Virus record (IMG/VR): IMGVR_UViG_2531839662_000040
Coordinates: 1 to 45,525 of that record
Direction: 5' to 3' (one strand)
From: a virus
Lineage: Duplodnaviria > Heunggongvirae > Uroviricota > Caudoviricetes
Length of the DNA stretch: 45,525 nt
In this document: in pieces, positions 2,295-10,335 of the stretch
Numbering within the stretch: the first letter of the stretch is position 1
Layout: every line of letters begins with the position of its first letter
Translations under genes and position numbers: made by a program
Notes under the pieces: model-generated
Told to the model about the DNA's origin: nothing
The model's input: only the letters and a program-made list of their open reading frames with translations
Database searches by the model: none

Positions 2295-3188
2295 ATGAGT
2301 TTAATTACGCAATTAAATGACGTAATGGCCCGTCGCGGCTTTACGCAGACCCACGTTGCCCGTGCTATTGGTCGTAGCAGCGCCGTTATCAACCAGTATT
2401 TGCAGGGCAAATATCAGGGCGATATGGCTGATATTGAAGAACGTATTTCTGCCTTTGTGACCCGTGAATGGGAAAAGGAAAACAACCGCCGTATTAAAGT
2501 GCGATTTGTCACCACCGGCATGGCCGCCAAAGGGCTGGAGGTGCTGACCTACGCCCATCTGGAGTGTGATATTTGCGTGCTGTATGGCGCGGCGGGTCTG
2601 GGTAAAAGCATGATTCTGAGTGAATATGCCGCCAGAAACCGGGATGTAGTGCTCATTGAAGCCGATATTGGCTATACGGCCAGAAAGTTACTCGATGAAC
2701 TGTGCCGTCAGCTTGGGGTAAAGGTTCACGGCGATATTCGCGAGAAGATTGATGCCTGTGTGCGTGAACTGCGTGGGTCAGGTCGTCTGCTGATGGTGGA
2801 TGAGGCTGAACTGCTCCCCTATCGTGCACTGGAGGTATTGCGCCGTCTGCATGACAAAGCGGGTATCGGGATTGTCCTGGCGGGTATGCCTCACCTTCTG
2901 ATTAACCTTAAGGGCCGTTGTGGTGAGTTCGCTCAATTATACAGCCGCGTGGCGCTGGCGCTTAACCTGGGCGATACGCTGACGCAGGAAGATTTTAACA
3001 AGATTGCCACAGACATGATGCCGGAAGCGGCGGACCCGGAAATTGGTGAGGCACTTTACACACGTTCGCTGGGTAATGCCCGTCGTCTGTTCAAGCTGGC
3101 GCGCGGTGTGTACCGGATTTGTGATATCAGCGATGCACCGGTCAGTGTGCAGGCCATTGATAAATATTCAGAAATGTTAATTCACTGA
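2295..3188 (+). CDS. Mu B-like AAA+ transposition ATPase
   Basis: 297 aa; N-terminal HTH-like region, Walker A GAAGLGKS, Walker B-like LLMVDEAE; directly follows transposase. Confidence 0.8.
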   Translation: MSLITQLNDVMARRGFTQTHVARAIGRSSAVINQYLQGKYQGDMADIEERISAFVTREWEKENNRRIKVRFVTTGMAAKGLEVLTYAHLECDICVLYGAAGLGKSMILSEYAARNRDVVLIEADIGYTARKLLDELCRQLGVKVHGDIREKIDACVRELRGSGRLLMVDEAELLPYRALEVLRRLHDKAGIGIVLAGMPHLLINLKGRCGEFAQLYSRVALALNLGDTLTQEDFNKIATDMMPEAADPEIGEALYTRSLGNARRLFKLARGVYRICDISDAPVSVQAIDKYSEMLIH

Positions 3189-3427
3189 TGGAGAGCAAGA
3201 CGATGGACAAGCAGACCATTAACGCCGTCCGTTCCCGTGCCCGTGTGGCCATCCACACCACTGGCGGTCGTGTAACGGGGCAGCATCACCGTTTACCTGT
3301 GGTTTATGCCTGCCCGCCCGTGGGTGGTCCTGTATGGCCGGTAACGGAAATCATCCAGACATTCAGCGGCCTGCGTCGTGTGGTTAAAACGTCCTGTATC
3401 GACGGCTGTACCGTCGTATGGCAATAA
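3188..3427 (+). CDS. hypothetical early protein (Cys-containing, 79 aa)
   Basis: ORF with TGATG coupling to B stop; alternative ATG at 3203; no recognisable domain. Confidence 0.3.
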   Translation: MESKTMDKQTINAVRSRARVAIHTTGGRVTGQHHRLPVVYACPPVGGPVWPVTEIIQTFSGLRRVVKTSCIDGCTVVWQ

Positions 3428-3442
3428 AACGAGGAATTAAAA

Positions 3443-3694
3443 GTGAGCGTGAAATTAACAATAGTATTTACCGACCTGGGTAATAACCAGTGCCATAACC
3501 TTATTCGGGTGGAAAATGGCGACAATGCCACACTCGAAGAAGCGGCAAGAACTCTGGGGACTGTTGGCGCTATTTGTACGATTCTGAAGGAGAAACACGG
3601 AAATGAACGGCTTGATCTGCAAATCTACCATGACTACGTGAAACAACTGGCACAGGGATGTCCGTATATTCCTCAAGAAACACAAATGCATTGA
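3443..3694 (+). CDS. hypothetical early protein
   Basis: GTG start preceded by GAGGA; N-terminus MSVKLTIVFT resembles that of ORF 3886..4101, suggesting paralogy. Confidence 0.35.
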   Translation: MSVKLTIVFTDLGNNQCHNLIRVENGDNATLEEAARTLGTVGAICTILKEKHGNERLDLQIYHDYVKQLAQGCPYIPQETQMH

Positions 3695-3704
3695 GGGATG
3701 AAAT

Positions 3705-3896
3705 ATGTCACTGGAGCTTGAATTAACTTTCAGCCTGGACAGGCCAGGTAAACCGGAGAAAGCCGTCGCGACGTATCAGTTGCCGCCTGATGTCACGGGA
3801 GAGCAGGTTTCCGACATTATCATAAAAACTCACTGTTTTATGAACGAAATTATTTTTAAATCGTTTGATTTCAAAGGAGAAAAACATGGCGGTTAA
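3705..3896 (+). CDS. hypothetical early protein
   Basis: ATG preceded by GAGGGA; 63 aa. Confidence 0.3.
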   Translation: MSLELELTFSLDRPGKPEKAVATYQLPPDVTGEQVSDIIIKTHCFMNEIIFKSFDFKGEKHGG

Positions 3897-4101
3897 GTTG
3901 GAAGTAATTATCTATACCAATGAAAAAGGCAGGGTTTTAACCCAGATTACAGGAAGTTATTTGAAGGATGGCGCTTCTGAAAGGGAGTTTCAGGTGGCAA
4001 CAGGATTGCATGATGTTATCAAGGAAGCACTGAGAAATGACTACAACGGCGTGAATATTTTTTCTGAAAACGCTGCGCCCTGCGCACATAACACAAATTA
4101 A
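3886..4101 (+). CDS. hypothetical early protein
   Basis: ATG at 3886 preceded by AAGGAG at good spacing (the ORF track's 3865 start is TTG); N-terminus MAVKLEVIIYT similar to ORF 3443. Confidence 0.35.
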   Translation: MAVKLEVIIYTNEKGRVLTQITGSYLKDGASEREFQVATGLHDVIKEALRNDYNGVNIFSENAAPCAHNTN

Positions 4102-4130
4102 TCTGTAAATATCACTGAGGTAATTTAATT

Positions 4131-4775
4131 ATGACGACTGAAAATAAAGTTAAGCAATACACGAAAACTCAAGCACCTGAAGGTTACTGGGTGGATGCCC
4201 GTGGCGTAATGACACCTGAAAGCCTTATCAAAGATATTGACCGCGACCGTGAGCAGCTGGTCGGTGAGCTTGTGGAGATGGTGATTGCTGCCTCTGCCTC
4301 ACTGCGTGAACTGAAACTACGTGCCTTTGGTGATATTCAGGCGTTTATTGACCTGTCGGCGAAAAAATACGGCGCTGTGAAAGGCGGTAAAAAAGGGAAT
4401 ATCACGCTGTACAGCTTTGACGGGCGTTACAAGATTCAGCGCGCCATGCAGGACCGTATCGCGCTTGATGAACGCATTCAGACCGCGAAGGCACTGATTG
4501 ATGACTGCCTGGCTGACTGGACGGAAGGTGCACGCCCTGAAATTAAAGCCATCATCAGCGAGGCATTCAGCACGGACAAGGAAGGCAACATTAACACCGG
4601 GCGCGTTCTGGCTCTGCGTCGTCTCGATATTACGGAGGAACGCTGGGATAACGCCATGAAACTGATTGGTGAAGCCGTCCAGGTGGTTGGCAGCAGAAGC
4701 TATATCCGCGTGTATGAGCGCGTCGGTGATTCTGATGAATACCGCGCAATCCCGCTTGATATTGCAGGGGTTTAA
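4131..4775 (+). CDS. DUF3164-like Mu-like prophage early protein
   Basis: 214 aa; recalled resemblance to the DUF3164 family common in Mu-like early regions; not similar to Mu Gam. Confidence 0.45.
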   Translation: MTTENKVKQYTKTQAPEGYWVDARGVMTPESLIKDIDRDREQLVGELVEMVIAASASLRELKLRAFGDIQAFIDLSAKKYGAVKGGKKGNITLYSFDGRYKIQRAMQDRIALDERIQTAKALIDDCLADWTEGARPEIKAIISEAFSTDKEGNINTGRVLALRRLDITEERWDNAMKLIGEAVQVVGSRSYIRVYERVGDSDEYRAIPLDIAGV

Positions 4776-4776
4776 C

Positions 4777-5010
4777 ATGCATCAGGATATCAAAGAGTAC
4801 AGAGCCGGAAATAGTTGCGCGGCGTATTCGCTGGGCGCGTCCAGAGCAGAACAACGCGGCGATTATGCCGAGGCTGAAAAGCTGTGGCGTAAGGCAGCGC
4901 AAAGCCCGTGTAGTACTCTGCGCCGCATCTGGGCAGAACACCGGGCACAGTTCTGTGCTAATGCTCACCAGAAAGGATGGAAGCCGATTCATGAACGCGA
5001 AACGCTTTAA
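4777..5010 (+). CDS. hypothetical early protein
   Basis: ATG at 4777 two nt after preceding stop; 77 aa. Confidence 0.3.
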   Translation: MHQDIKEYRAGNSCAAYSLGASRAEQRGDYAEAEKLWRKAAQSPCSTLRRIWAEHRAQFCANAHQKGWKPIHERETL

Positions 5011-5182
5011 TCAGTTATATCCGCCTGGTACTCGTTTCATGCACATTGCACATCAGGCGGTGCGTGGTGGTCGGGTGGTAAAAACTGTTGCACCGGCCAG
5101 AGATTTTAAATGTGGTTGTGTGGTTGAAATTAATGTCGAGCCTTATTTCGTAAAAGTCGAAACACTGAAAGCACCGCATTAA
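4991..5182 (+). CDS. hypothetical small protein
   Basis: internal ATG of ORF 4865..5182; overlaps previous ORF end by 20 nt. Confidence 0.25.
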   Translation: MNAKRFNQLYPPGTRFMHIAHQAVRGGRVVKTVAPARDFKCGCVVEINVEPYFVKVETLKAPH

Positions 5183-5212
5183 TTTAATTTGTTTTTAATT
5201 GTTATTTAAAAC

Positions 5213-5247
5213 AGGCGTAAACCCGTCGGGCTGGCTTACGCCTGAAT
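5213..5247. repeat. intergenic hairpin element, copy 1 (GGCGTAAACCCGYCGGGCTGGCTTACGCC)
   Basis: 7-bp stem GGCGTAA/TTACGCC with 15-nt loop, preceded by AT-rich tract, about 15 nt upstream of the next start; near-identical copy at 5837..5871. Confidence 0.4.
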
Positions 5248-5262
5248 TAAGGGGATTTGTAT

Positions 5263-5751
5263 ATGAAAGATAAAGTCTGGGATTTTATTGTTACTCCTGA
5301 AGGTTTTGCTACCCGTTCATCTGAGAAGTTAACCAATGTAACGTTATGGGCGTCATCATTGCTGGGCCATCTGGGAGCACCTGCCGATTTTATGTATGTG
5401 GTACTTGATGCACAGATTGCCGGGAATGCTATGGCCAGTAAGGGGGCTTATATTCAGGGGGATTTGTTCGCCATGATGGCGAATGACACAGCAGCGCTGT
5501 ATATCGCCACACGGAACATACTGACAAGAATATCCATGCTGTCTGACTGTAAGGATATGGAAGACCTCGCATACATCCTTGAAGATGATTTGCTCACTAT
5601 CTCAGGTGTGCAGGAATCCCTCCCGCGTCAGTTGCGGTTTATTGACCTGGTGGAGTCATATAAAGATAAGCCTGATTTTTTCAGATTCGATTCAGTGGAA
5701 TGGAACTGCTGGATGAATATTATCCGCTGGATTCGATTGCCCGTGATGTGA
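5263..5751 (+). CDS. hypothetical protein, possibly frameshifted at 3' end
   Basis: ATG at 5263 with AAGGGG RBS; last ~20 codons are W/C-rich while an overlapping frame (about 5676..5807) reads as ordinary protein. Confidence 0.4.
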   Translation: MKDKVWDFIVTPEGFATRSSEKLTNVTLWASSLLGHLGAPADFMYVVLDAQIAGNAMASKGAYIQGDLFAMMANDTAALYIATRNILTRISMLSDCKDMEDLAYILEDDLLTISGVQESLPRQLRFIDLVESYKDKPDFFRFDSVEWNCWMNIIRWIRLPVM

Positions 5752-5836
5752 AGGCGTTCGTAAAGTCTGTTGACCGTCATTACCGGAAAGCTGAACGTCG
5801 TAGTTAATAAGTCTGTTTTTAATTTTATTGGTATAT

Positions 5837-5871
5837 GGCGTAAACCCGCCGGGGCTGGCTTACGCCTGAAT
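5837..5871. repeat. intergenic hairpin element, copy 2
   Basis: same stem and loop as 5213..5247 with one loop substitution; again just upstream of an ORF start. Confidence 0.4.
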
Positions 5872-6083
5872 CAGAGAGAGTTTATTTATGAATATCGCTA
5901 AGCAAAAAAAGTTCGCCCGCGAAATTAATCTGACAATCGTTTGTTTTAATCGTCTTGCGACCAGTTCTCAATCGACAGCAGATGTTCATTCAGTACCGCA
6001 GCCAGAACGAACTCCCCACGTTCCTGATGGCCGTGCCGGAAGTTGCGTAATTCAGAATTCAGGATGCTGAGGTTCAGACGACC

Positions 6084-6794
6084 ATGAAAGATAAATACAT
6101 TGCCAAAATCAAAAAACTGTTACGCCTTGCCAGAGGAACATCAAGCCCGGAAGAAGCCGCTAACGCTATTGCAAAAGCCCAGGTTTATATGCGCCAGCAT
6201 GGTATCAGCGAAAACGACGCTGAATTGTTCGACATTCAGGAAGCTGCCAGCGCGGGTGCGCCGAGTGATGCCAGTACGCCGCCGCGTTATATGCACATCC
6301 TGTGTGACCTGGTCTGTAAAGCCTTCGGTGTCGAGTGTTACATCTCCGGTGAGTACCGGGCTTCTGGTTCACTCAAACGTCACGTGCGTTTTTATGGCTC
6401 TGACAGCCGCCCGGAAATCGCGGCTTACGCGTTTGATGTGCTTTCCCGTCAGATGATGGCAGAGCGCAAGAAATATCAGGATAAACACTGCAAACGTTGC
6501 GGTCCGTCCACGCGGGTAGCCCGTGGCGACCAGTTCTGCGAAGGCTGGGTCTTTGGTGCCCGTGATGTCATTGCGGTGTATGACGTCTCCCCGGAAGAAA
6601 AAAGCCGCCTTGAGCTTTACAGAAAGAACCTGCACAGCACTAAGGGACTGCGCGACGGGGATATGCGCACAGCTAAAGCGTGTCGGGGTGCAGAGTTTGC
6701 CGCTACTGCGGGTTTTATCGCCAGGAAAAACGCCAGACTGCATCAGGGGGTTAATGGTCAGAGCAACAGACCGCTGGCACTGGGGAGGGTGTAA
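6084..6794 (+). CDS. DUF2786-family protein
   Basis: N-terminus KIKKLLRLARG...EEAANAIAKAQ matches the recalled DUF2786 signature; 236 aa. Confidence 0.5.
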   Translation: MKDKYIAKIKKLLRLARGTSSPEEAANAIAKAQVYMRQHGISENDAELFDIQEAASAGAPSDASTPPRYMHILCDLVCKAFGVECYISGEYRASGSLKRHVRFYGSDSRPEIAAYAFDVLSRQMMAERKKYQDKHCKRCGPSTRVARGDQFCEGWVFGARDVIAVYDVSPEEKSRLELYRKNLHSTKGLRDGDMRTAKACRGAEFAATAGFIARKNARLHQGVNGQSNRPLALGRV

Positions 6795-6796
6795 CG

Positions 6797-7024
6797 ATGG
6801 CTTTTAAACTTCTCAGTGTTACCGAAGCAATATACCAGCCTCCCGGAGAACGCCACGAATACAGGATGAATGACGGTAGCGCGGCGGTTGAGTTTCCCAA
6901 ATATCCGGGGGCTTCCCGGTGGCGGTTCTATGACAGTGCGGGACGCCGGATTATTAAAAGAACCGTGCACAACGCCATGAAAGCCGCCGTAGAACGTCAC
7001 AAAAGAAGGTTTAACTGCAAATGA
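6797..7024 (+). CDS. hypothetical protein
   Basis: 75 aa ORF immediately following previous stop. Confidence 0.3.
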   Translation: MAFKLLSVTEAIYQPPGERHEYRMNDGSAAVEFPKYPGASRWRFYDSAGRRIIKRTVHNAMKAAVERHKRRFNCK

Positions 7025-7240
7025 ATATTGAATTTTATGACTACGGAGTCACCGCAAAAATCATTGTTACATGCTGGTTCTGGGAGTTCCGCGCTATTGC
7101 CGGGTTGTGGATGCGGCGCTGTTTGTGGCCCCTGAAGTACACCATCAGAGCGGTGGAGGTCTTTTAATGAGAACCGTCATCACCGGTAAAACGGTCCCGA
7201 TGTTACGGGCGTTTAAAGTGGCAAAACAGGAGGCGACACG

Positions 7241-7555
7241 ATGAGCATTGATAAAACGATAACGATAGATGTAGCCATGAATACAGGTCTGGCGCTTATC
7301 GGTTATGGCTATATCACTTTTATGTCATTCAGGTGGTTGATTTCTTCGGTCTTTAAACAATGTGAAAAACGTCGCTGCAAAGACAAGCGCGTGAAGGCAC
7401 TAAATGCGTTTAATGACGCTTTTGATATTGACCGTATGCAACAGGGCGACCCGGCACGCGTAATTACCCGGGGAGATGTCGTGATTTTGGTATACCGGAG
7501 TGAAAAAATGAGCAGGAGGCGGCGCAGTGAACCAGCAAACCAGAATAAGCGATAA
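7241..7555 (+). CDS. small membrane protein (one predicted TM helix)
   Basis: hydrophobic segment NTGLALIGYGYITFMSFRWLISSVF followed by basic tail; RBS AGGAGG upstream. Confidence 0.35.
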   Translation: MSIDKTITIDVAMNTGLALIGYGYITFMSFRWLISSVFKQCEKRRCKDKRVKALNAFNDAFDIDRMQQGDPARVITRGDVVILVYRSEKMSRRRRSEPANQNKR

Positions 7556-7715
7556 GAGTCTGACCAGACTGATTGCCGATGCGGACAAGGTGCTGGAGCG
7601 GAACACCCCCGTTGCCGATGAGGAATGGTGGCAGGATTTCCGGGCCGCAATGCTGGAACTTCAGGAGCGCCGCAGGGCTGACAGTACAGAGTCAGTAGTA
7701 AATACAGGAGAATGA
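7527..7715 (+). CDS. hypothetical protein
   Basis: GTG-start ORF, acidic 62 aa. Confidence 0.25.
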   Translation: MNQQTRISDKSLTRLIADADKVLERNTPVADEEWWQDFRAAMLELQERRRADSTESVVNTGE

Positions 7716-7719
7716 AACG

Positions 7720-7896
7720 ATGAAAAACCGTAAAGCAATACGACTTCTTTTACAGCGACCTGTGTGTATGGTGTCGCTGGTTATCAGCAACCATAAGATA
7801 GCTGTACTCCATCCATTTGGTCAGGTGGCTTTTACCGTAAATCGTAAACCCACCGCGTCACAGAACAGGCGGAAGAAAGGGTACGCAGTAAGATGA
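7720..7896 (+). CDS. small basic protein (MKNRKA paralog 1, 58 aa)
   Basis: ATG just after AGGAG; not in the ORF track (<60 aa); shares start and C-terminal QNRRK motif with the next ORF. Confidence 0.25.
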   Translation: MKNRKAIRLLLQRPVCMVSLVISNHKIAVLHPFGQVAFTVNRKPTASQNRRKKGYAVR

Positions 7897-8069
7897 AAAA
7901 CCGTAAGGCAAAAATTCTGTTAGCTCGCAGAAACGGTGTTGGGGTCTGGCGATGGTTGAGGATTAGTAACAGACGAGTGAGGTTGACGGGGTGTTGCGGG
8001 GTGATGTTGCACAGCTGTTGCAAAAAGCCCAGCGCGGCGCAAAACCGCAGGAAAAATCACGGTATGTAA
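7893..8069 (+). CDS. small basic Cys-rich protein (MKNRKA paralog 2, 58 aa)
   Basis: ATGA overlap with paralog 1 stop; first 19-21 nt near-identical to paralog 1. Confidence 0.25.
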   Translation: MKNRKAKILLARRNGVGVWRWLRISNRRVRLTGCCGVMLHSCCKKPSAAQNRRKNHGM

Positions 8070-8081
8070 AGGAGGTGCCAG

Positions 8082-8492
8082 GTGAAGAAAATGGTTTTTG
8101 TGGCGGCATTGCTGACAATTACCCAACAGGCGCAGGCTTCAGCAGTTATTGTGGCATCTGCCGCTGCGACCACGGCTGCTGTAGCTGCTGCAAACTCTGC
8201 GAATATCGCAAGCCAACAGGAGCGAGACGCTGCTAACGCATCAGCCAGTGCTCTCCCGATTTCTGTTAAGGGCAGTAAGCAACATCTGGGGTTCATAACG
8301 TGCGGTAAGCGTTCTTATGAAGCTGTAGGCTCACTGGGATGTACGGTATATGGCGACAGTGAGAGCAGAGAAATTCCATGGAAAACGTGGCCCGGATACG
8401 TTCTTGGCTCGAAGCTCCCGGCCAGTTATGAGGTAAACGCCGTGTCGTTTGATCACTATAACGGCGTGGCAACTGTCTATTTCACATACTGA
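8082..8492 (+). CDS. secreted protein with N-terminal signal peptide
   Basis: GTG start 6 nt after AAAGGAGG; MKKMVFVAALLTITQQAQA signal-like N-terminus followed by Ala-rich region. Confidence 0.5.
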   Translation: MKKMVFVAALLTITQQAQASAVIVASAAATTAAVAAANSANIASQQERDAANASASALPISVKGSKQHLGFITCGKRSYEAVGSLGCTVYGDSESREIPWKTWPGYVLGSKLPASYEVNAVSFDHYNGVATVYFTY

Positions 8493-8596
8493 GGCCCGGC
8501 ATGAAATTTTCTGAATCACGGAGCAACAACACGATGAAAGCCATCACCGTAACTCGACGTTCCTGATTTCGCGGGTTGTTTAAACAGTAATCAAAT

Positions 8597-8624
8597 GCAG
8601 ACCAAAACATATGTTTTGGTCTGC
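8597..8624. promoter_or_regulatory. perfect 28-bp palindrome GCAGACCAAAACATATGTTTTGGTCTGC
   Basis: read directly; second partial half-site TTTTGGTC 12 nt downstream; sits before ORF 8647. Confidence 0.35.
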
Positions 8625-8646
8625 CAAAAGTAGTGTTTTGGTCATT

Positions 8647-8925
8647 ATGAAGATTGAACAAATCGGAATAGCTGCTTTCAGGCAGCAGGCTGAAAGCGGT
8701 GGCGTGGATGAGTTCGTTGTGCAGCGGTTCGGTGGTGTGTATCACCTCTTCGCTGTGAATCGCCACGCCGGGGTGTCCTATTTTCTACAGGAACGCCGTG
8801 GCGATTACAAGACATGGCTGTCTCTTGACCGTGCCGCTGCGTTCTTGTCAGGGATTGGCGTTTCACGTTTTACCGTGCGTTTTGAGGATAACAAACATGC
8901 TGAAAAAGATGATCGGGGCCATTAA
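8647..8925 (+). CDS. hypothetical protein
   Basis: ATG at 8647 (ORF track 8611 start lies inside the palindrome); 92 aa. Confidence 0.3.
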   Translation: MKIEQIGIAAFRQQAESGGVDEFVVQRFGGVYHLFAVNRHAGVSYFLQERRGDYKTWLSLDRAAAFLSGIGVSRFTVRFEDNKHAEKDDRGH

Positions 8926-9295
8926 AGCCGGTCAGGCGTATCTGGGGTGGGATGATGCCCTTTATCGCCAGACGCTGGCCCGCCTGACCGGTAAAACCAG
9001 CACCACACGCTGCAATCTCGATGAACTGCGCATCATCCGGGAATACATGCACGAACAGGGATTCCCGCGCAAGGCACCCGCTGGTAAAGGTCGCCGCCCT
9101 CGTGTTGCAATGAGCAGAAAATCAGTATTATCCAAAATTGAAGCGTTGCTGGCTGATGCCGGTCGTTCCTGGGCGTATGCAGAAGGACTGGCATCTCACA
9201 TGTATAAGCAACATGTGATCGAATGGCTGACGGATGAACAGCTTTTTGGAGTGATGGTGGCGCTGGTTAAAGATTCAAGAAGGAGAAATCAATGA
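8897..9295 (+). CDS. GemA-like (Mu gp16 family, DUF1018) regulatory protein
   Basis: internal ATG of ORF 8798; LGWDDALYRQTLARLTGKTS...ELRIIREYMHEQGF resembles recalled GemA N-terminal signature. Confidence 0.5.
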   Translation: MLKKMIGAIKAGQAYLGWDDALYRQTLARLTGKTSTTRCNLDELRIIREYMHEQGFPRKAPAGKGRRPRVAMSRKSVLSKIEALLADAGRSWAYAEGLASHMYKQHVIEWLTDEQLFGVMVALVKDSRRRNQ

Positions 9296-9768
9296 TGAAA
9301 AAATGGTTGTTTTGTTTAGTAGGGGTTATTTTCTCTTGTTCTGTGCTGGCACAGACAGAGGAACAGGCGCAAAAGGAACTGAAACGTTATCAGGATATGA
9401 AGCCATTGGCTGAACAGATGCTTCGGGAAAGTGGAAAACTTTATTACGCTATGCCAGAAGCTGCATCGCAGTATCAGCAGGGAAATATTGAAGAGTGGAA
9501 GAATATCAAAAAAGGACTAAAACAACTGGATGAACAGGCCAGTAAACTGGGGGACGACCCGCTTGATCCTGTGTATGGTTCCTGCATAAAAATGAAAAAC
9601 CAGCTACAGGATTACTGGTCTAACGTTATCAGGGATGACAGGCAGTTTCTGGAGCGTTCAAGAAATCAGTTTAAAGAATATCGTATGGATTGTTTTGATT
9701 CGTTTGTTTTTGGTAAAGAGCAAATAGAATCAAGAAAAGGCCTGGTTATTCTAGACCTGACTAAATAA
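9292..9768 (+). CDS. secreted or periplasmic protein with signal peptide
   Basis: MMKKWLFCLVGVIFSCSVLAQ signal-like N-terminus; followed by a strong terminator. Confidence 0.45.
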   Translation: MMKKWLFCLVGVIFSCSVLAQTEEQAQKELKRYQDMKPLAEQMLRESGKLYYAMPEAASQYQQGNIEEWKNIKKGLKQLDEQASKLGDDPLDPVYGSCIKMKNQLQDYWSNVIRDDRQFLERSRNQFKEYRMDCFDSFVFGKEQIESRKGLVILDLTK

Positions 9769-9779
9769 GACTTAGTTTA

Positions 9780-9806
9780 GCCCCTGCCATGCAGGGGCTT
9801 TTTTGT
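9780..9806 (+). terminator. rho-independent terminator
   Basis: GCCCCTGC-CATG-CAGGGGC stem-loop followed by TTTTTTG. Confidence 0.6.
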
Positions 9807-9810
9807 GGTC

Positions 9811-9839
9811 TGTACAGGCGATCATGTATGGCTATAATA
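9811..9839 (+). promoter_or_regulatory. candidate sigma70 promoter upstream of Mor/C-like gene
   Basis: TGTACA, 17-bp spacer, TATAAT; about 29 nt upstream of ATG 9868. Confidence 0.3.
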
Positions 9840-9867
9840 ACAGTAAGTTACTACCGGAGACGCCATC

Positions 9868-10335
9868 ATGCAGACCTTCAGTGAAACAGATCTTCGCGAT
9901 GCGCAGGCACTGCTGCCCGATTCCGTGCAGCAACTGATTAGCGTGATTGGCTTCCCCGCCCTGACCCGGTTAATCCGTTCTTTTGGTGGCGTGACGTTAA
10001 GCGGTAAAACCGGCGCACACGCCGGACGCACCGGCGGTGTCCATGCCCTGTTACATGATGTGCTGACCGAAGACGAAATCAACAAACTGATCCGTTTTCT
10101 TGGCGGCGCACCGTTTTACATTCCCCGTTGCGATCATGCGTTACGTGCCCTGCGTAACACCCGTTTTATGGCTGATTTACAGCAGCATGTAAAAGGCGGA
10201 TGCTCACACCGGCAGGCGCTGGCACTGCTCTGTCCCCGTTACGGGATTTCAGACCGGTACGCATGGCAGCTGATACACCGACGACAAAAACAGACTTCGC
10301 TGAAAAGCCCCACCCAGGTGGGGCTTTTTGATTAA
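9868..10335 (+). CDS. Mor/C-family transcriptional activator
   Basis: 155 aa; FGG...YIPR core and C-terminal HTH-like GISDRYAWQLI typical of the Mu Mor/C family; positioned before the lysis/late genes. Confidence 0.65.
   Translation: MQTFSETDLRDAQALLPDSVQQLISVIGFPALTRLIRSFGGVTLSGKTGAHAGRTGGVHALLHDVLTEDEINKLIRFLGGAPFYIPRCDHALRALRNTRFMADLQQHVKGGCSHRQALALLCPRYGISDRYAWQLIHRRQKQTSLKSPTQVGLFD
10307..10329 (+). terminator. stem-loop plus T-tract inside the 3' end of the Mor/C-like CDS
   Basis: GCCCCACC-CAGGTGGGGC followed by TTTTT. Confidence 0.4.

What the first reader, a model, noticed from the sequence alone, without database searches (positions are those of the whole stretch)
3188..9768. About 6.5 kb early accessory region including two signal-peptide proteins
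Between the B-like gene and the Mor/C-like gene are more than 15 small co-directional ORFs, mostly without recognisable domains, including two likely paralogues (3443 and 3886) and two predicted secreted proteins (8082..8492 and 9292..9768, the latter followed by a strong terminator). This corresponds to the Mu semi-essential region where host-modulating genes reside. Secreted proteins here are unusual and could mediate superinfection exclusion or act as lysogenic-conversion morons.
Basis: inference. Interest (0 to 1): 0.4.

Follow-up and report, generated by a model that had tools for sequence, protein, structure and literature searches.

The report
Exported-protein swap slot in Mu-like prophage
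This is the ordinary accessory early region of a Mu-like prophage of E. coli, but its last gene sits in a swap slot that in sister prophages holds unrelated small exported proteins or nothing, which points to a dispensable function at the cell envelope that can be tested directly.

Summary
The window is a Mu-like prophage of E. coli UMNF18. Region 3188-9768 is its semi-essential early region: about 19 co-directional small genes between MuB and Mor, including Kil-like, DUF3164, ANR, DUF2786/DUF7168, DUF4752 and GemA. Both signal-peptide proteins are real and conserved, and each has two invariant cysteines. A crude heuristic flags them as the only 2 of 95 plus-strand ORFs in the window with signal-peptide features. 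The claimed paralogues 3443/3886 are at chance level; the true tandem pair is 7720/7893.

The new result concerns SP2 (9292-9768). It is the last gene before the early terminator, in a polymorphic slot. Among 58 E. coli genomes with 97-100% identical flanks, the slot holds SP2 (23), an unrelated 112-aa exported protein (11), an unrelated 174-aa exported protein (5) or nothing (19). All cargos are low-GC, two-cysteine and acidic. The terminator and a conserved promoter in front of mor belong to the backbone.

SP2 belongs to a tiny family (11 representatives in 1.84 billion proteins) that lay next to GemA/Mor in every locus examined. It is under purifying selection and is predicted to be a four-helix bundle. 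SP1 is a mobile accessory gene also found in P1-like phage-plasmids and in the virulent phage Av-05.

Function is inferred, not shown: most likely envelope-level exclusion of other phages during lytic growth.

The parts
3203..3427 (+). Kil-like small protein, directly after MuB
   Evidence: phrog_2679 'Kil', E 4e-37. 34% identity to Mu Kil over the C-terminal 44 aa. Same position as Mu gp5.
3443..3694 (+). Small ORF of unknown function (phrog_35084). Not a paralogue of 3886.
3705..3896 (+). Small ORF of unknown function (phrog_38867)
3886..4101 (+). Small ORF of unknown function (phrog_7438)
4131..4775 (+). DUF3164 protein. It occupies the position that Gam holds in a related phage.
   Evidence: PF11363, E 7e-79. 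In L011 a Phage_Mu_Gam gene precedes the same ANR and 63-aa genes.
4777..5010 (+). ANR-family (AraC negative regulator) small protein
   Evidence: NF033650, 57.3 bits against a cut-off of 32. Annotated as ANR in RefSeq.
4991..5182 (+). Small ORF of unknown function (phrog_5591)
5263..5751 (+). phrog_7741 ORF, truncated in the window by a 1-bp homopolymer difference (T6 versus T7 near 5675). Flanked by ~85-nt direct repeats at 5175-5258 and 5799-5882.
   Evidence: The RefSeq and L002 versions are 181 aa.
6084..6794 (+). DUF2786 + DUF7168 protein
6797..7024 (+). Unannotated small ORF (phrog_9400), conserved in relatives
7021..7167 (+). 48-aa ORF annotated by RefSeq
7241..7555 (+). DUF4752 protein. 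Its C-terminus is altered in the window by a 1-bp homopolymer difference (A6 versus A7 near 7503).
   Evidence: It is 96 aa in RefSeq and in relatives.
7527..7715 (+). Small ORF (phrog_14672)
7720..8069 (+). Tandem pair of phrog_1380 small basic proteins (7720-7896 and 7893-8069). This is the true paralogue pair. The module is shared at ~85% nt identity with P1-like and Stx phages.
8082..8492 (+). SP1: exported 136-aa protein. Signal peptide MKKMVFVAALLTITQQAQA|S, then a conserved Ala/Thr-rich segment, then a C-terminal domain with invariant C74 and C87.
   Evidence: phrog_8805.
8597..8643 (.). Perfect 28-bp palindrome (8597-8624) plus an adjacent related half-palindrome, in the intergenic gap upstream of the 8647 gene
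8647..8925 (+). Small ORF (phrog_7844)
8897..9295 (+). GemA / gp16 family protein
   Evidence: PF06252, E 3e-18
9292..9768 (+). SP2: exported 158-aa protein. Signal peptide MMKKWLFCLVGVIFSCSVLA|Q; predicted four-helix bundle; invariant C98 and C134. It is the cargo of the polymorphic slot. Its ATG overlaps the gemA stop.
9779..9805 (+). Intrinsic terminator of the early operon (backbone feature, present in the empty-slot allele)
9811..9838 (+). Conserved sigma-70-like promoter (TGTACA-16-TATAAT, with a GATC in the spacer) in front of mor
9868..10335 (+). Mor/C-family late activator (right boundary of the region)

Best explanation
Region 3188-9768 is the semi-essential early operon segment of a Mu-like transposable prophage. 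About 19 small genes are read in the same direction as A and B and end at an intrinsic terminator (9779-9805) just upstream of a separately promoted mor gene.

Most of the region is a mosaic of exchangeable accessory genes. Two of them encode small Sec-exported, disulfide-capable proteins.

SP2 (9292-9768) is the terminal gene of the operon. It occupies a cassette-exchange slot between the gemA stop codon and the promoter of mor. In sister prophages with nearly identical flanks, the slot carries a deeply diverged SP2 allele, either of two unrelated exported proteins, or nothing.

Shown: the anatomy, the polymorphism, the foreign base composition, purifying selection, and independence from the lysis cassette.

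Inferred:
- SP2 is made as part of the early transcript during lytic development, because it is translationally coupled to gemA and has no promoter of its own.
- It is cleaved by signal peptidase I and folds in the periplasm into a disulfide-stabilised four-helix bundle.
- It acts as a dispensable binder at the envelope. The most likely role is to block entry or envelope penetration by competing phages while the cell is committed to producing progeny, in the way T4 Spackle/Imm, P1 Sim or T5 Llp work.
- SP1 is a second, independently mobile exported accessory protein of the same general kind.

I put about 0.9 on the anatomy and slot description and about 0.35-0.4 on the exclusion function. The overall figure below reflects the combined statement.
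For: Identity and synteny:
- The window is 100% identical to E. coli UMNF18, with the order Ner-A-B-Kil...GemA-Mor.

Slot polymorphism in 58 complete E. coli genomes:
- SP2 window type: 12
- SP2 variant at 89% nt: 11
- 174-aa cargo: 5
- 112-aa cargo: 11
- empty: 19

Shared properties of the cargos:
- a signal peptide
- exactly two cysteines in the mature part
- 38-43% GC, against 52-55% in the flanks
- pI 5.3-5.7
- mature size 11-17 kDa

Cassette boundaries and selection:
- Divergence between SP2 alleles is confined to ~9377-9797, with 95-100% identity on both sides.
- dS is 1.2-3.3 in SP2 and 0.07-0.24 in GemA/Mor. dN/dS is 0.07-0.16.

The SP2 family:
- 10 clusters in 5.8 billion proteins.
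- 11 representatives in 1.84 billion.
- Absent from 50,697 deposited phage genomes.
- In every locus examined it abuts GemA/Mor, either as GemA-SP2-terminator-Mor or as GemA-Mor-SP2-like.
- The signal peptide and both cysteines are conserved down to ~20% identity.

Structure:
- The AlphaFold2 model has pLDDT 83.7 and pTM 0.74, with four helices.

Terminator and promoter:
- They are kept in the empty allele and in distant lineages, with three different compensating stems.

No promoter of its own:
- Only 3 promoter-like sites occur in 8 kb, none upstream of SP2.
- The SP2 ATG overlaps the gemA stop.

Independence from the lysis cassette:
- The same holins (identical protein accessions) accompany SP2, the 112-aa cargo, the 174-aa cargo and the empty slot; GH108 accompanies SP2, both other cargos and four of the five empty-slot prophages sampled (the fifth has an M15 peptidase endolysin).

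SP1:
- 56 to 116 clusters, all in Enterobacterales or their phages.
- Found full-length in the virulent phage Av-05 (68% aa), in phage KW1E_UTAR, and in P1-like phage-plasmids (47%).
- dN/dS is 0.16-0.38.
Against: - No functional evidence of any kind exists.
- There is no sequence or significant structural match to any known exclusion protein. PADLOC gives no hit. BFVD and PDB Foldseek give nothing at E<0.06. PDB sequence searches give nothing.
- The four-helix bundle is a generic fold.
- Signal peptides were judged by my own heuristic and by conservation, not by SignalP.
- In this allele the sequence V-I-F-S-C16 fits the loose PROSITE lipobox, so a lipoprotein form is not excluded. However, Cys16 is Phe in P0003 and P0005 and is absent in distant members.
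- Expression timing is inferred from gene layout only. A weak internal promoter inside gemA cannot be excluded.
- The SP1 structure prediction failed (pLDDT 50).
- A third of sister prophages lack any cargo, so whatever the cargos do is non-essential and could be niche-specific rather than anti-phage.
Confidence: 0.5

Rival explanations
1. SP1, SP2 or both are lysogenic-conversion morons. [quoted passage not shown]
For: - SP2 has foreign base composition: 40% GC against 52-55% in the flanks.
- It is an insertion between genes that are adjacent in sister prophages.
- The identical SP2 protein is present in the pathogens UMNF18 (porcine ETEC) and EPEC E2348/69.
- The proteins are exported.
Against: - No promoter-like site lies upstream of either gene.
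- The SP2 ATG overlaps the gemA stop, and SP1 starts 13 nt after the preceding gene.
- Both lie inside the early operon, which in Mu is shut off by the repressor in lysogens (established knowledge of Mu Pe regulation).
- SP1 also occurs in a strictly virulent phage, Av-05, where lysogenic conversion is meaningless.
- Carriers include commensal, soil and animal isolates.
Confidence: 0.15
2. SP2 and the other slot cargos regulate the phage's own lysis from the periplasm, as an antiholin or endolysin inhibitor that sets lysis timing, like the periplasmic domain of T4 RI.
For: - The protein is periplasmic and helical.
- In the Klebsiella, Trabulsiella and Buttiauxella arrangement, the SP2-like gene lies between Mor and the endolysin gene.
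Against: - Prophages with identical holins (WP_001372993, WP_000445983) and a GH108 endolysin carry SP2, the 112-aa cargo, the 174-aa cargo or nothing.
- The SP2 family is found with three different endolysin types: GH108, Phage_lysozyme and a GH19-like enzyme.
- Three unrelated proteins are unlikely to regulate the same holin.
- In the window SP2 is separated from the lysis genes by a terminator, mor and another gene.
Confidence: 0.1
3. SP2 is a free-standing mimic of periplasmic four-helix-bundle sensor domains. It would titrate a ligand or a partner lipoprotein of a host envelope sensor (QseE/QseG type, or chemoreceptor or NarQ type) to rewire host signalling during phage development.
Against: - Sequence identity is 5-13%.
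- The long first helix of the model includes the signal peptide, which inflates similarity to TM-plus-sensor constructs.
- The unrelated 112-aa and 174-aa cargos in the same slot are not four-helix bundles by sequence.
Confidence: 0.07
4. The ORFs are decaying or functionless passenger DNA.
For: - A third of sister prophages lack the slot cargo.
- No function can be assigned.
- The window carries two frameshifting homopolymer differences elsewhere in the region.
Against: - dN/dS is 0.07-0.16 for SP2 despite near-saturated dS, and 0.16-0.38 for SP1.
- Signal peptides and cysteine pairs are conserved down to ~20% identity.
- The SP2 fold prediction is confident.
Confidence: 0.04

Closest known systems
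Semi-essential early region of phage Mu (kil to gemA/mor)
   Same: Same position and orientation between B and Mor. Kil follows B directly and GemA is last before Mor. The genes are many, small, tightly packed, dispensable-looking and mostly of unknown function.
   Different: - In Mu, gemA overlaps mor directly and the early terminator lies after mor. Here a cargo gene, a terminator and a promoter lie between gemA and mor.
- Gam is replaced by DUF3164.
- Apart from Kil (34% identical over 44 aa) and GemA (25% identical), the genes are not detectably homologous to Mu's; none of the others falls in a family annotated from Mu, though I did not compare them directly with Mu's proteins.
Regions of genomic plasticity in Pseudomonas Mu-like (D3112-type) phages, Cazares et al. 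2014 (PMC4378225)
   Same: Accessory genes sit at fixed positions between conserved core genes. They are often single ORFs, low in GC, and present or absent between near-identical genomes.
   Different: In those phages GemA (ORF13) and Mor (ORF14) are adjacent core genes, and the paper text I searched does not mention signal peptides or membrane proteins. The slot here lies exactly between GemA and Mor, and in the alleles seen it holds only exported proteins.
Morons of lambdoid phages (Juhala/Hendrix definition, as quoted in PMC4378225)
   Same: Extra DNA between genes that are adjacent in relatives, with deviant base composition and a terminator downstream.
   Different: There is no promoter of its own. 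The start codon overlaps the upstream gene. The terminator is a backbone element that persists when the slot is empty, although its sequence is exchanged together with the cargo.
Exported superinfection-exclusion proteins: T4 Spackle and Imm, P1 Sim, T5 Llp, phi80/N15 Cor (from my own knowledge of these systems)
   Same: Small phage-encoded proteins that carry a signal peptide or lipobox, act in the periplasm or outer membrane, are dispensable, and in T4 and T5 are made early in lytic infection.
   Different: No sequence or significant structural similarity was found. No phenotype is known. The resemblance is of kind, not of family.
Periplasmic four-helix-bundle ligand-binding domains (4HB_MCP type: Tar, Tsr, PcaY, NarQ, QseE)
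   Same: Predicted up-down four-helix bundle of similar size located in the periplasm. These are the top structural neighbours.
   Different: SP2 is stand-alone and soluble, with no transmembrane or signalling module. Scores are below significance for homology. SP2 has a helix 3 to helix 4 cysteine pair that is invariant in its own family.

Membership tests
Mu-type semi-essential early region | Lies between the transposition genes A/B and the Mor/C activator, on the same strand | tested here: met
   MuA 234-2276, MuB 2295-3188 and Mor 9868-10335. All 17 annotated CDS are on the plus strand.
Mu-type semi-essential early region | Kil directly after B, and GemA at the distal end | tested here: met
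   phrog_2679 Kil at 3203-3427. PF06252 GemA at 8897-9295. Order as in Mu.
Mu-type semi-essential early region | Gam (Phage_Mu_Gam) present | tested here: not met
   No Gam hit. DUF3164 occupies the position that Gam has in L011.
Mu-type semi-essential early region | gemA translationally coupled to mor, with the early terminator after mor | tested here: not met
   This holds in Mu and in about 65 of 75 other species. Here SP2, a terminator and a promoter intervene.
Moron (autonomous accessory unit) | Inserted between two genes that are adjacent in related phages | tested here: met
   The empty-slot allele occurs in 19 of 58 genomes.
Moron (autonomous accessory unit) | Base composition differs from the neighbours | tested here: met
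   SP2 is 40.3% GC; GemA is 52.1% and Mor 55.1%.
Moron (autonomous accessory unit) | Own promoter | tested here: not met
   No promoter-like site upstream. The ATG overlaps the gemA stop. A consensus scan is not proof of absence.
Moron (autonomous accessory unit) | Own terminator | tested here: inconclusive
   A terminator follows SP2, but it is also present in the empty allele. Its sequence nevertheless changes together with the cargo.
Sec signal peptide, signal peptidase I substrate | Positive n-region, hydrophobic h-region of about 10-15 residues, and small residues at -3 and -1 | tested here: met
   Own heuristic flags 2 of 95 ORFs. The features are conserved in all homologues. SignalP was not available.
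Sec signal peptide, signal peptidase I substrate | Experimental export and cleavage | not testable with these tools
   Needs PhoA or Bla fusions, or N-terminal sequencing.
Bacterial lipoprotein | Invariant lipobox cysteine at +1 | tested here: not met
   SP2 Cys16 is Phe in P0003 and P0005 and is absent in P0067-P0075. SP1 has no cysteine in its signal region. The window allele alone fits a loose lipobox.
Known anti-phage defence or exclusion families (PADLOC; T4 Sp, P1 Sim, Cor, Llp) | Sequence or structural homology to a described member | tested here: not met
Known anti-phage defence or exclusion families (PADLOC; T4 Sp, P1 Sim, Cor, Llp) | Protection phenotype against phage | not testable with these tools
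   Needs plating assays.
4HB_MCP-type periplasmic sensor domain | Four-helix-bundle fold | tested here: inconclusive
4HB_MCP-type periplasmic sensor domain | Flanked by two transmembrane helices and linked to a cytoplasmic signalling module | tested here: not met
   SP2 is 158 aa, with a single N-terminal hydrophobic segment and nothing after helix 4.

The most novel reading that the evidence does not exclude
The position between gemA and the early terminator in enterobacterial Mu-like phages would be a dedicated exchange slot for periplasm-targeted effectors. It would be a miniature counter-phage or envelope 'armoury' locus in which whole mature domains plus the terminator are swapped by recombination. 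For SP2 alleles the swap happens inside the shared signal-peptide-coding 5' end. The SP2 family would then be a previously unrecognised, Mu-specific class of periplasmic four-helix-bundle exclusion factor.
Probability: 0.3. Interest if true: 0.6.

Novelty: new variant of a known kind. Interest (0 to 1): 0.45.

Why it matters
- Accessory slots in temperate phages are where anti-phage and host-modifying functions have repeatedly been found. The anti-CRISPR locus of Pseudomonas Mu-like phages is one example.
- This slot is sharply bounded, and in the alleles seen it holds only small exported, disulfide-capable proteins or nothing. That gives a natural set of isogenic-like comparisons: four cargo states on nearly identical prophages, one of them in the model EPEC strain E2348/69.
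- If the cargos are exclusion factors, they would add envelope-level defences from transposable phages, and a new protein family with no characterised member.
- The relocation of mor behind a terminator and its own conserved promoter also shows that this phage clade runs the early-to-late switch differently from Mu.

Tried and rejected
- Paralogy of 3443 and 3886: BLASTP and a shuffle test both put it at chance level.
- Pfam at E<=1, NCBIfam, PADLOC and PHROGs for SP2: only noise. No PHROG at all for the window-type and variant SP2 alleles; the Klebsiella SP2-like gene hits phrog_29261, of unknown function.
- PDB sequence searches with profiles of SP1 and SP2 and with both alternative cargos: only a weak Sel1-repeat hint for the 112-aa cargo, E 0.0013.
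- SP1 structure prediction: pLDDT 50, unusable, so no fold search was run on it.
- BFVD and PDB Foldseek for SP2: nothing significant. AFDB50 was not available.
- Rfam on the region: no hits.
- Generality of the slot: in 80 other species GemA is almost always directly coupled to Mor, and the few insertions encode zinc-ribbon-type proteins, not exported ones. The slot is therefore clade-specific. The apparent enrichment of hydrophobic N-termini after Mor (45 of 264) is explained by lysis genes, and I discarded it.
- Correlation of an empty slot with an M15 endolysin: suggested by one locus, but four further empty-slot prophages carry GH108.
- Literature: no paper in the library mentions these proteins or this slot.

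Full report
**What the window is**

The queried stretch is 100% identical to the chromosome of porcine ETEC strain E. coli UMNF18, apart from two 1-bp homopolymer differences. RefSeq annotates a Mu-like prophage there. The order is repressor, Ner-like, Mu transposase, MuB-like ATPase, 17 small plus-strand CDS, a Mor-family activator, two holins, a GH108 endolysin, DUF1804, terminase and a Mu-type portal. The order Ner-A-B-Kil...GemA-Mor matches phage Mu.

**Checking the observation**

- Gene count. There are 17 annotated CDS, plus two unannotated ORFs with full-length PHROG matches (6797-7024 and 7720-7896). That gives about 19 co-directional genes.
- Recognisable families. These are Kil (PHROG), DUF3164, ANR (NCBIfam, 57 bits against a cut-off of 32), DUF2786/DUF7168, DUF4752 and GemA. 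The remaining genes match only PHROGs of unknown function.
- Paralogues. The proposed pair 3443/3886 is not supported. BLASTP finds nothing at E<=100, and the Smith-Waterman score equals the shuffle mean (z = 0.2). A real tandem duplication lies at 7720-7896 / 7893-8069, with 43% identity and z = 13.6.
- Signal peptides. Both signal-peptide ORFs exist as described. A crude heuristic of my own requires a positive n-region, an uncharged hydrophobic 9-mer and small residues at -3 and -1. It flags exactly these two among the 95 plus-strand ORFs of the whole 45.5-kb window. No dedicated predictor was available.
- Terminator. The terminator after 9768 is strong: a 9-bp stem with 7 GC pairs, a T6 run, -23.4 kcal/mol and z = -4.7.

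**SP2 (9292-9768) and its slot**

- SP2's ATG overlaps the gemA stop codon (ATGA). No promoter-like site precedes it.
- A search with gemA-SP2-mor against 5,426 complete E. coli genomes found 58 carriers of this prophage type, with flanks 97-100% identical. The span between the flanks differs between them.
- I fetched one example of each span length. The tally is:

| Slot content | Genomes |
|---|---|
| SP2 as in the window (includes EPEC E2348/69, identical protein) | 12 |
| SP2 variant, ~70% aa identical | 11 |
| Unrelated 174-aa protein, MKSKIINSIIIGSLLLSTPVFA\|DW... | 5 |
| Unrelated 112-aa protein, MKKLLLLILTLCFTGISHA\|SD... | 11 |
| Nothing | 19 |

- In the empty allele, the gemA stop is followed directly by the same hairpin terminator and the same sequence CTGTACAGGCGATCATGTATGGCTATAAT...ATG(mor). 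The terminator and the promoter-like element are therefore backbone features, not parts of an SP2 moron.
- All cargos share a profile: signal peptide, exactly two cysteines in the mature part, 38-43% GC against 52-55% in the flanks, pI 5.3-5.7, and 11-17 kDa.
- Between SP2 alleles, nucleotide identity is 95-100% up to about codon 28. It drops to 45-77% through the rest of the gene and the terminator, then returns to 93-100% at the promoter.
- Synonymous divergence is 1.2-3.3 inside SP2 and 0.07-0.24 in GemA and Mor. dN/dS is 0.07-0.16. These are old alleles moved by recombination and kept under purifying selection.

**How wide the SP2 family is**

- A word-indexed search of 5.8 billion proteins found 10 clusters.
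- An exhaustive HMM search of 1.84 billion representatives found 11.
- None of 50,697 deposited phage genomes encodes it.
- All members keep the signal peptide, a (K/R)(R/K)(Y/H)xxLKP motif and both cysteines.
- In every locus I examined, the gene abuts GemA/Mor in a Mu-like element. It is arranged either as GemA-SP2-terminator-Mor (window, Salmonella L002, E. coli L003 and L007, and the more distant L009 and L011 with a different lysis module) or as GemA-Mor-SP2-like (L010, Trabulsiella L016, Klebsiella L017, Buttiauxella L020).
- In both layouts it is the last gene coupled to the early genes.
- In 80 other species GemA is almost always directly coupled to Mor, as in Mu. The rare insertions encode zinc-ribbon-type proteins. 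The exported-protein slot is therefore specific to this enterobacterial clade.
- The terminator/promoter pair in front of mor is conserved even in L009 and L011. Three different stem sequences all preserve pairing, a T-run, and the CTGTACA...GATC...GGCTATAAT motif.

**Structure of SP2**

**SP1 (8082-8492)**

- It has a conserved signal peptide, a conserved Ala/Thr-rich segment, and a C-terminal domain of about 70 residues with invariant C74 and C87.
- The family is larger than SP2's but still has no annotation.
- It occurs full-length in the virulent phage Av-05 (68% aa, 78.5% nt), in 45-kb phages such as KW1E_UTAR, and at 47% identity in the accessory region of P1-like phage-plasmids next to hot, humD and phd/doc.
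- Within the Mu-like prophages it is present or absent independently of the slot state.
- Its structure prediction failed (pLDDT 50).

**Mechanism**

- Shown: the anatomy, the polymorphism, selection, and independence from the lysis cassette. The same holins (identical protein accessions) accompany SP2, the 112-aa cargo, the 174-aa cargo and the empty slot; GH108 accompanies all cargo states and four of the five empty-slot prophages sampled.
- Inferred: SP2 is translated from the early transcript during lytic development, exported, oxidised and folded in the periplasm. There it acts as a dispensable binder.
- Most likely role: the pattern is unrelated exported proteins alternating with absence at one locus, foreign composition, and early expression. 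This best fits envelope-level exclusion of competing phages, as T4 Spackle/Imm, P1 Sim and T5 Llp do (my own knowledge of those systems). I give this about 0.35-0.4.
- Rivals: lysogenic conversion (0.15), own-lysis regulation (0.1), a decoy of host sensor domains (0.07), and no function (0.04).

**Novelty**

Fixed accessory slots in Mu-like phages are known for Pseudomonas (PMC4378225), and so are exported exclusion proteins. What is new here:
- the slot's position between gemA and mor
- its restriction, in the alleles seen, to exported proteins
- the uncharacterised Mu-specific SP2 family
- the relocation of mor behind a terminator and its own promoter

I rate it a new variant of a known kind, of moderate interest.

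Noticed in passing
window 9779-9868: The late activator gene mor sits behind a strong intrinsic terminator and has its own near-consensus sigma-70-like promoter (TGTACA-16-TATAAT, with a GATC Dam site in the spacer). The arrangement is conserved across lineages with three different terminator stems. In Mu, mor is simply the last gene of the early transcript. How a near-consensus promoter in front of the late activator is kept silent in the lysogen is unexplained.
   Followed up: partly
window ~5675 and ~7503: The window differs from the RefSeq record of the same strain by two 1-bp homopolymer deletions (T6 versus T7, and A6 versus A7). They truncate the phrog_7741 ORF (181 aa in RefSeq and relatives, 162 aa here) and change the C-terminus of the DUF4752 protein (96 aa elsewhere, 104 aa here). 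They are probably sequencing or assembly-version differences.
   Followed up: yes
window 5175-5258 and 5799-5882: Direct repeats of ~85 nt (73-84% identical, spacing 624 nt), each containing a GGCGTAAACCCG.CGGGCTGGCTTACGCC hairpin, flank ORF 5263-5751. That ORF is absent from the sister prophage L003. The repeats may be the recombination linkers that let gene cassettes move in this region.
   Followed up: no
window 8597-8643: A perfect 28-bp palindrome GCAGACCAAAACAT|ATGTTTTGGTCTGC is followed by a related copy CCAAAAGTAGTGTTTTGGTC. They lie in the 155-nt gap between SP1 and the next gene, immediately upstream of its ATG at 8647. It looks like an operator or an RNA-processing hairpin. No promoter was detected nearby.
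   Followed up: no
window 4777-5010: A prophage-borne ANR-family (AraC negative regulator) gene scores well above the NCBIfam cut-off. ANR proteins such as Aar down-regulate AraC-type virulence activators and H-NS in enteric pathogens (PMC4038620, PMC4983702, PMC5570504). This one sits in a Mu-like prophage of an ETEC strain, in a prophage type that also occurs in EPEC E2348/69; I did not check that the ANR gene itself is present in E2348/69.
   Followed up: partly
window 4131-4775; L011 1-346: DUF3164 occupies the position, upstream of the same ANR and 63-aa genes, that a Phage_Mu_Gam gene occupies in a related Mu-like prophage. DUF3164 may therefore be a functional alternative to Gam.
   Followed up: no
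window 7705-8511: The block holding the two phrog_1380 genes and SP1 is a mosaic module. It is shared at 78-95% nucleotide identity with P1-like phage-plasmids (RCS47, P1), Stx2c phages, phiV10 and the virulent phage Av-05.
   Followed up: partly
L100 (E. coli STEC346) 4743-5120: One sister prophage with the same holins has an M15 metallopeptidase endolysin in place of the GH108 enzyme, so the endolysin gene is itself exchangeable.
   Followed up: partly
L001 1-1142 (upstream of the window start): A phage tail protein gene lies immediately upstream of the prophage's repressor gene. The Mu-like element may be inserted next to, or inside, another prophage.
   Followed up: no
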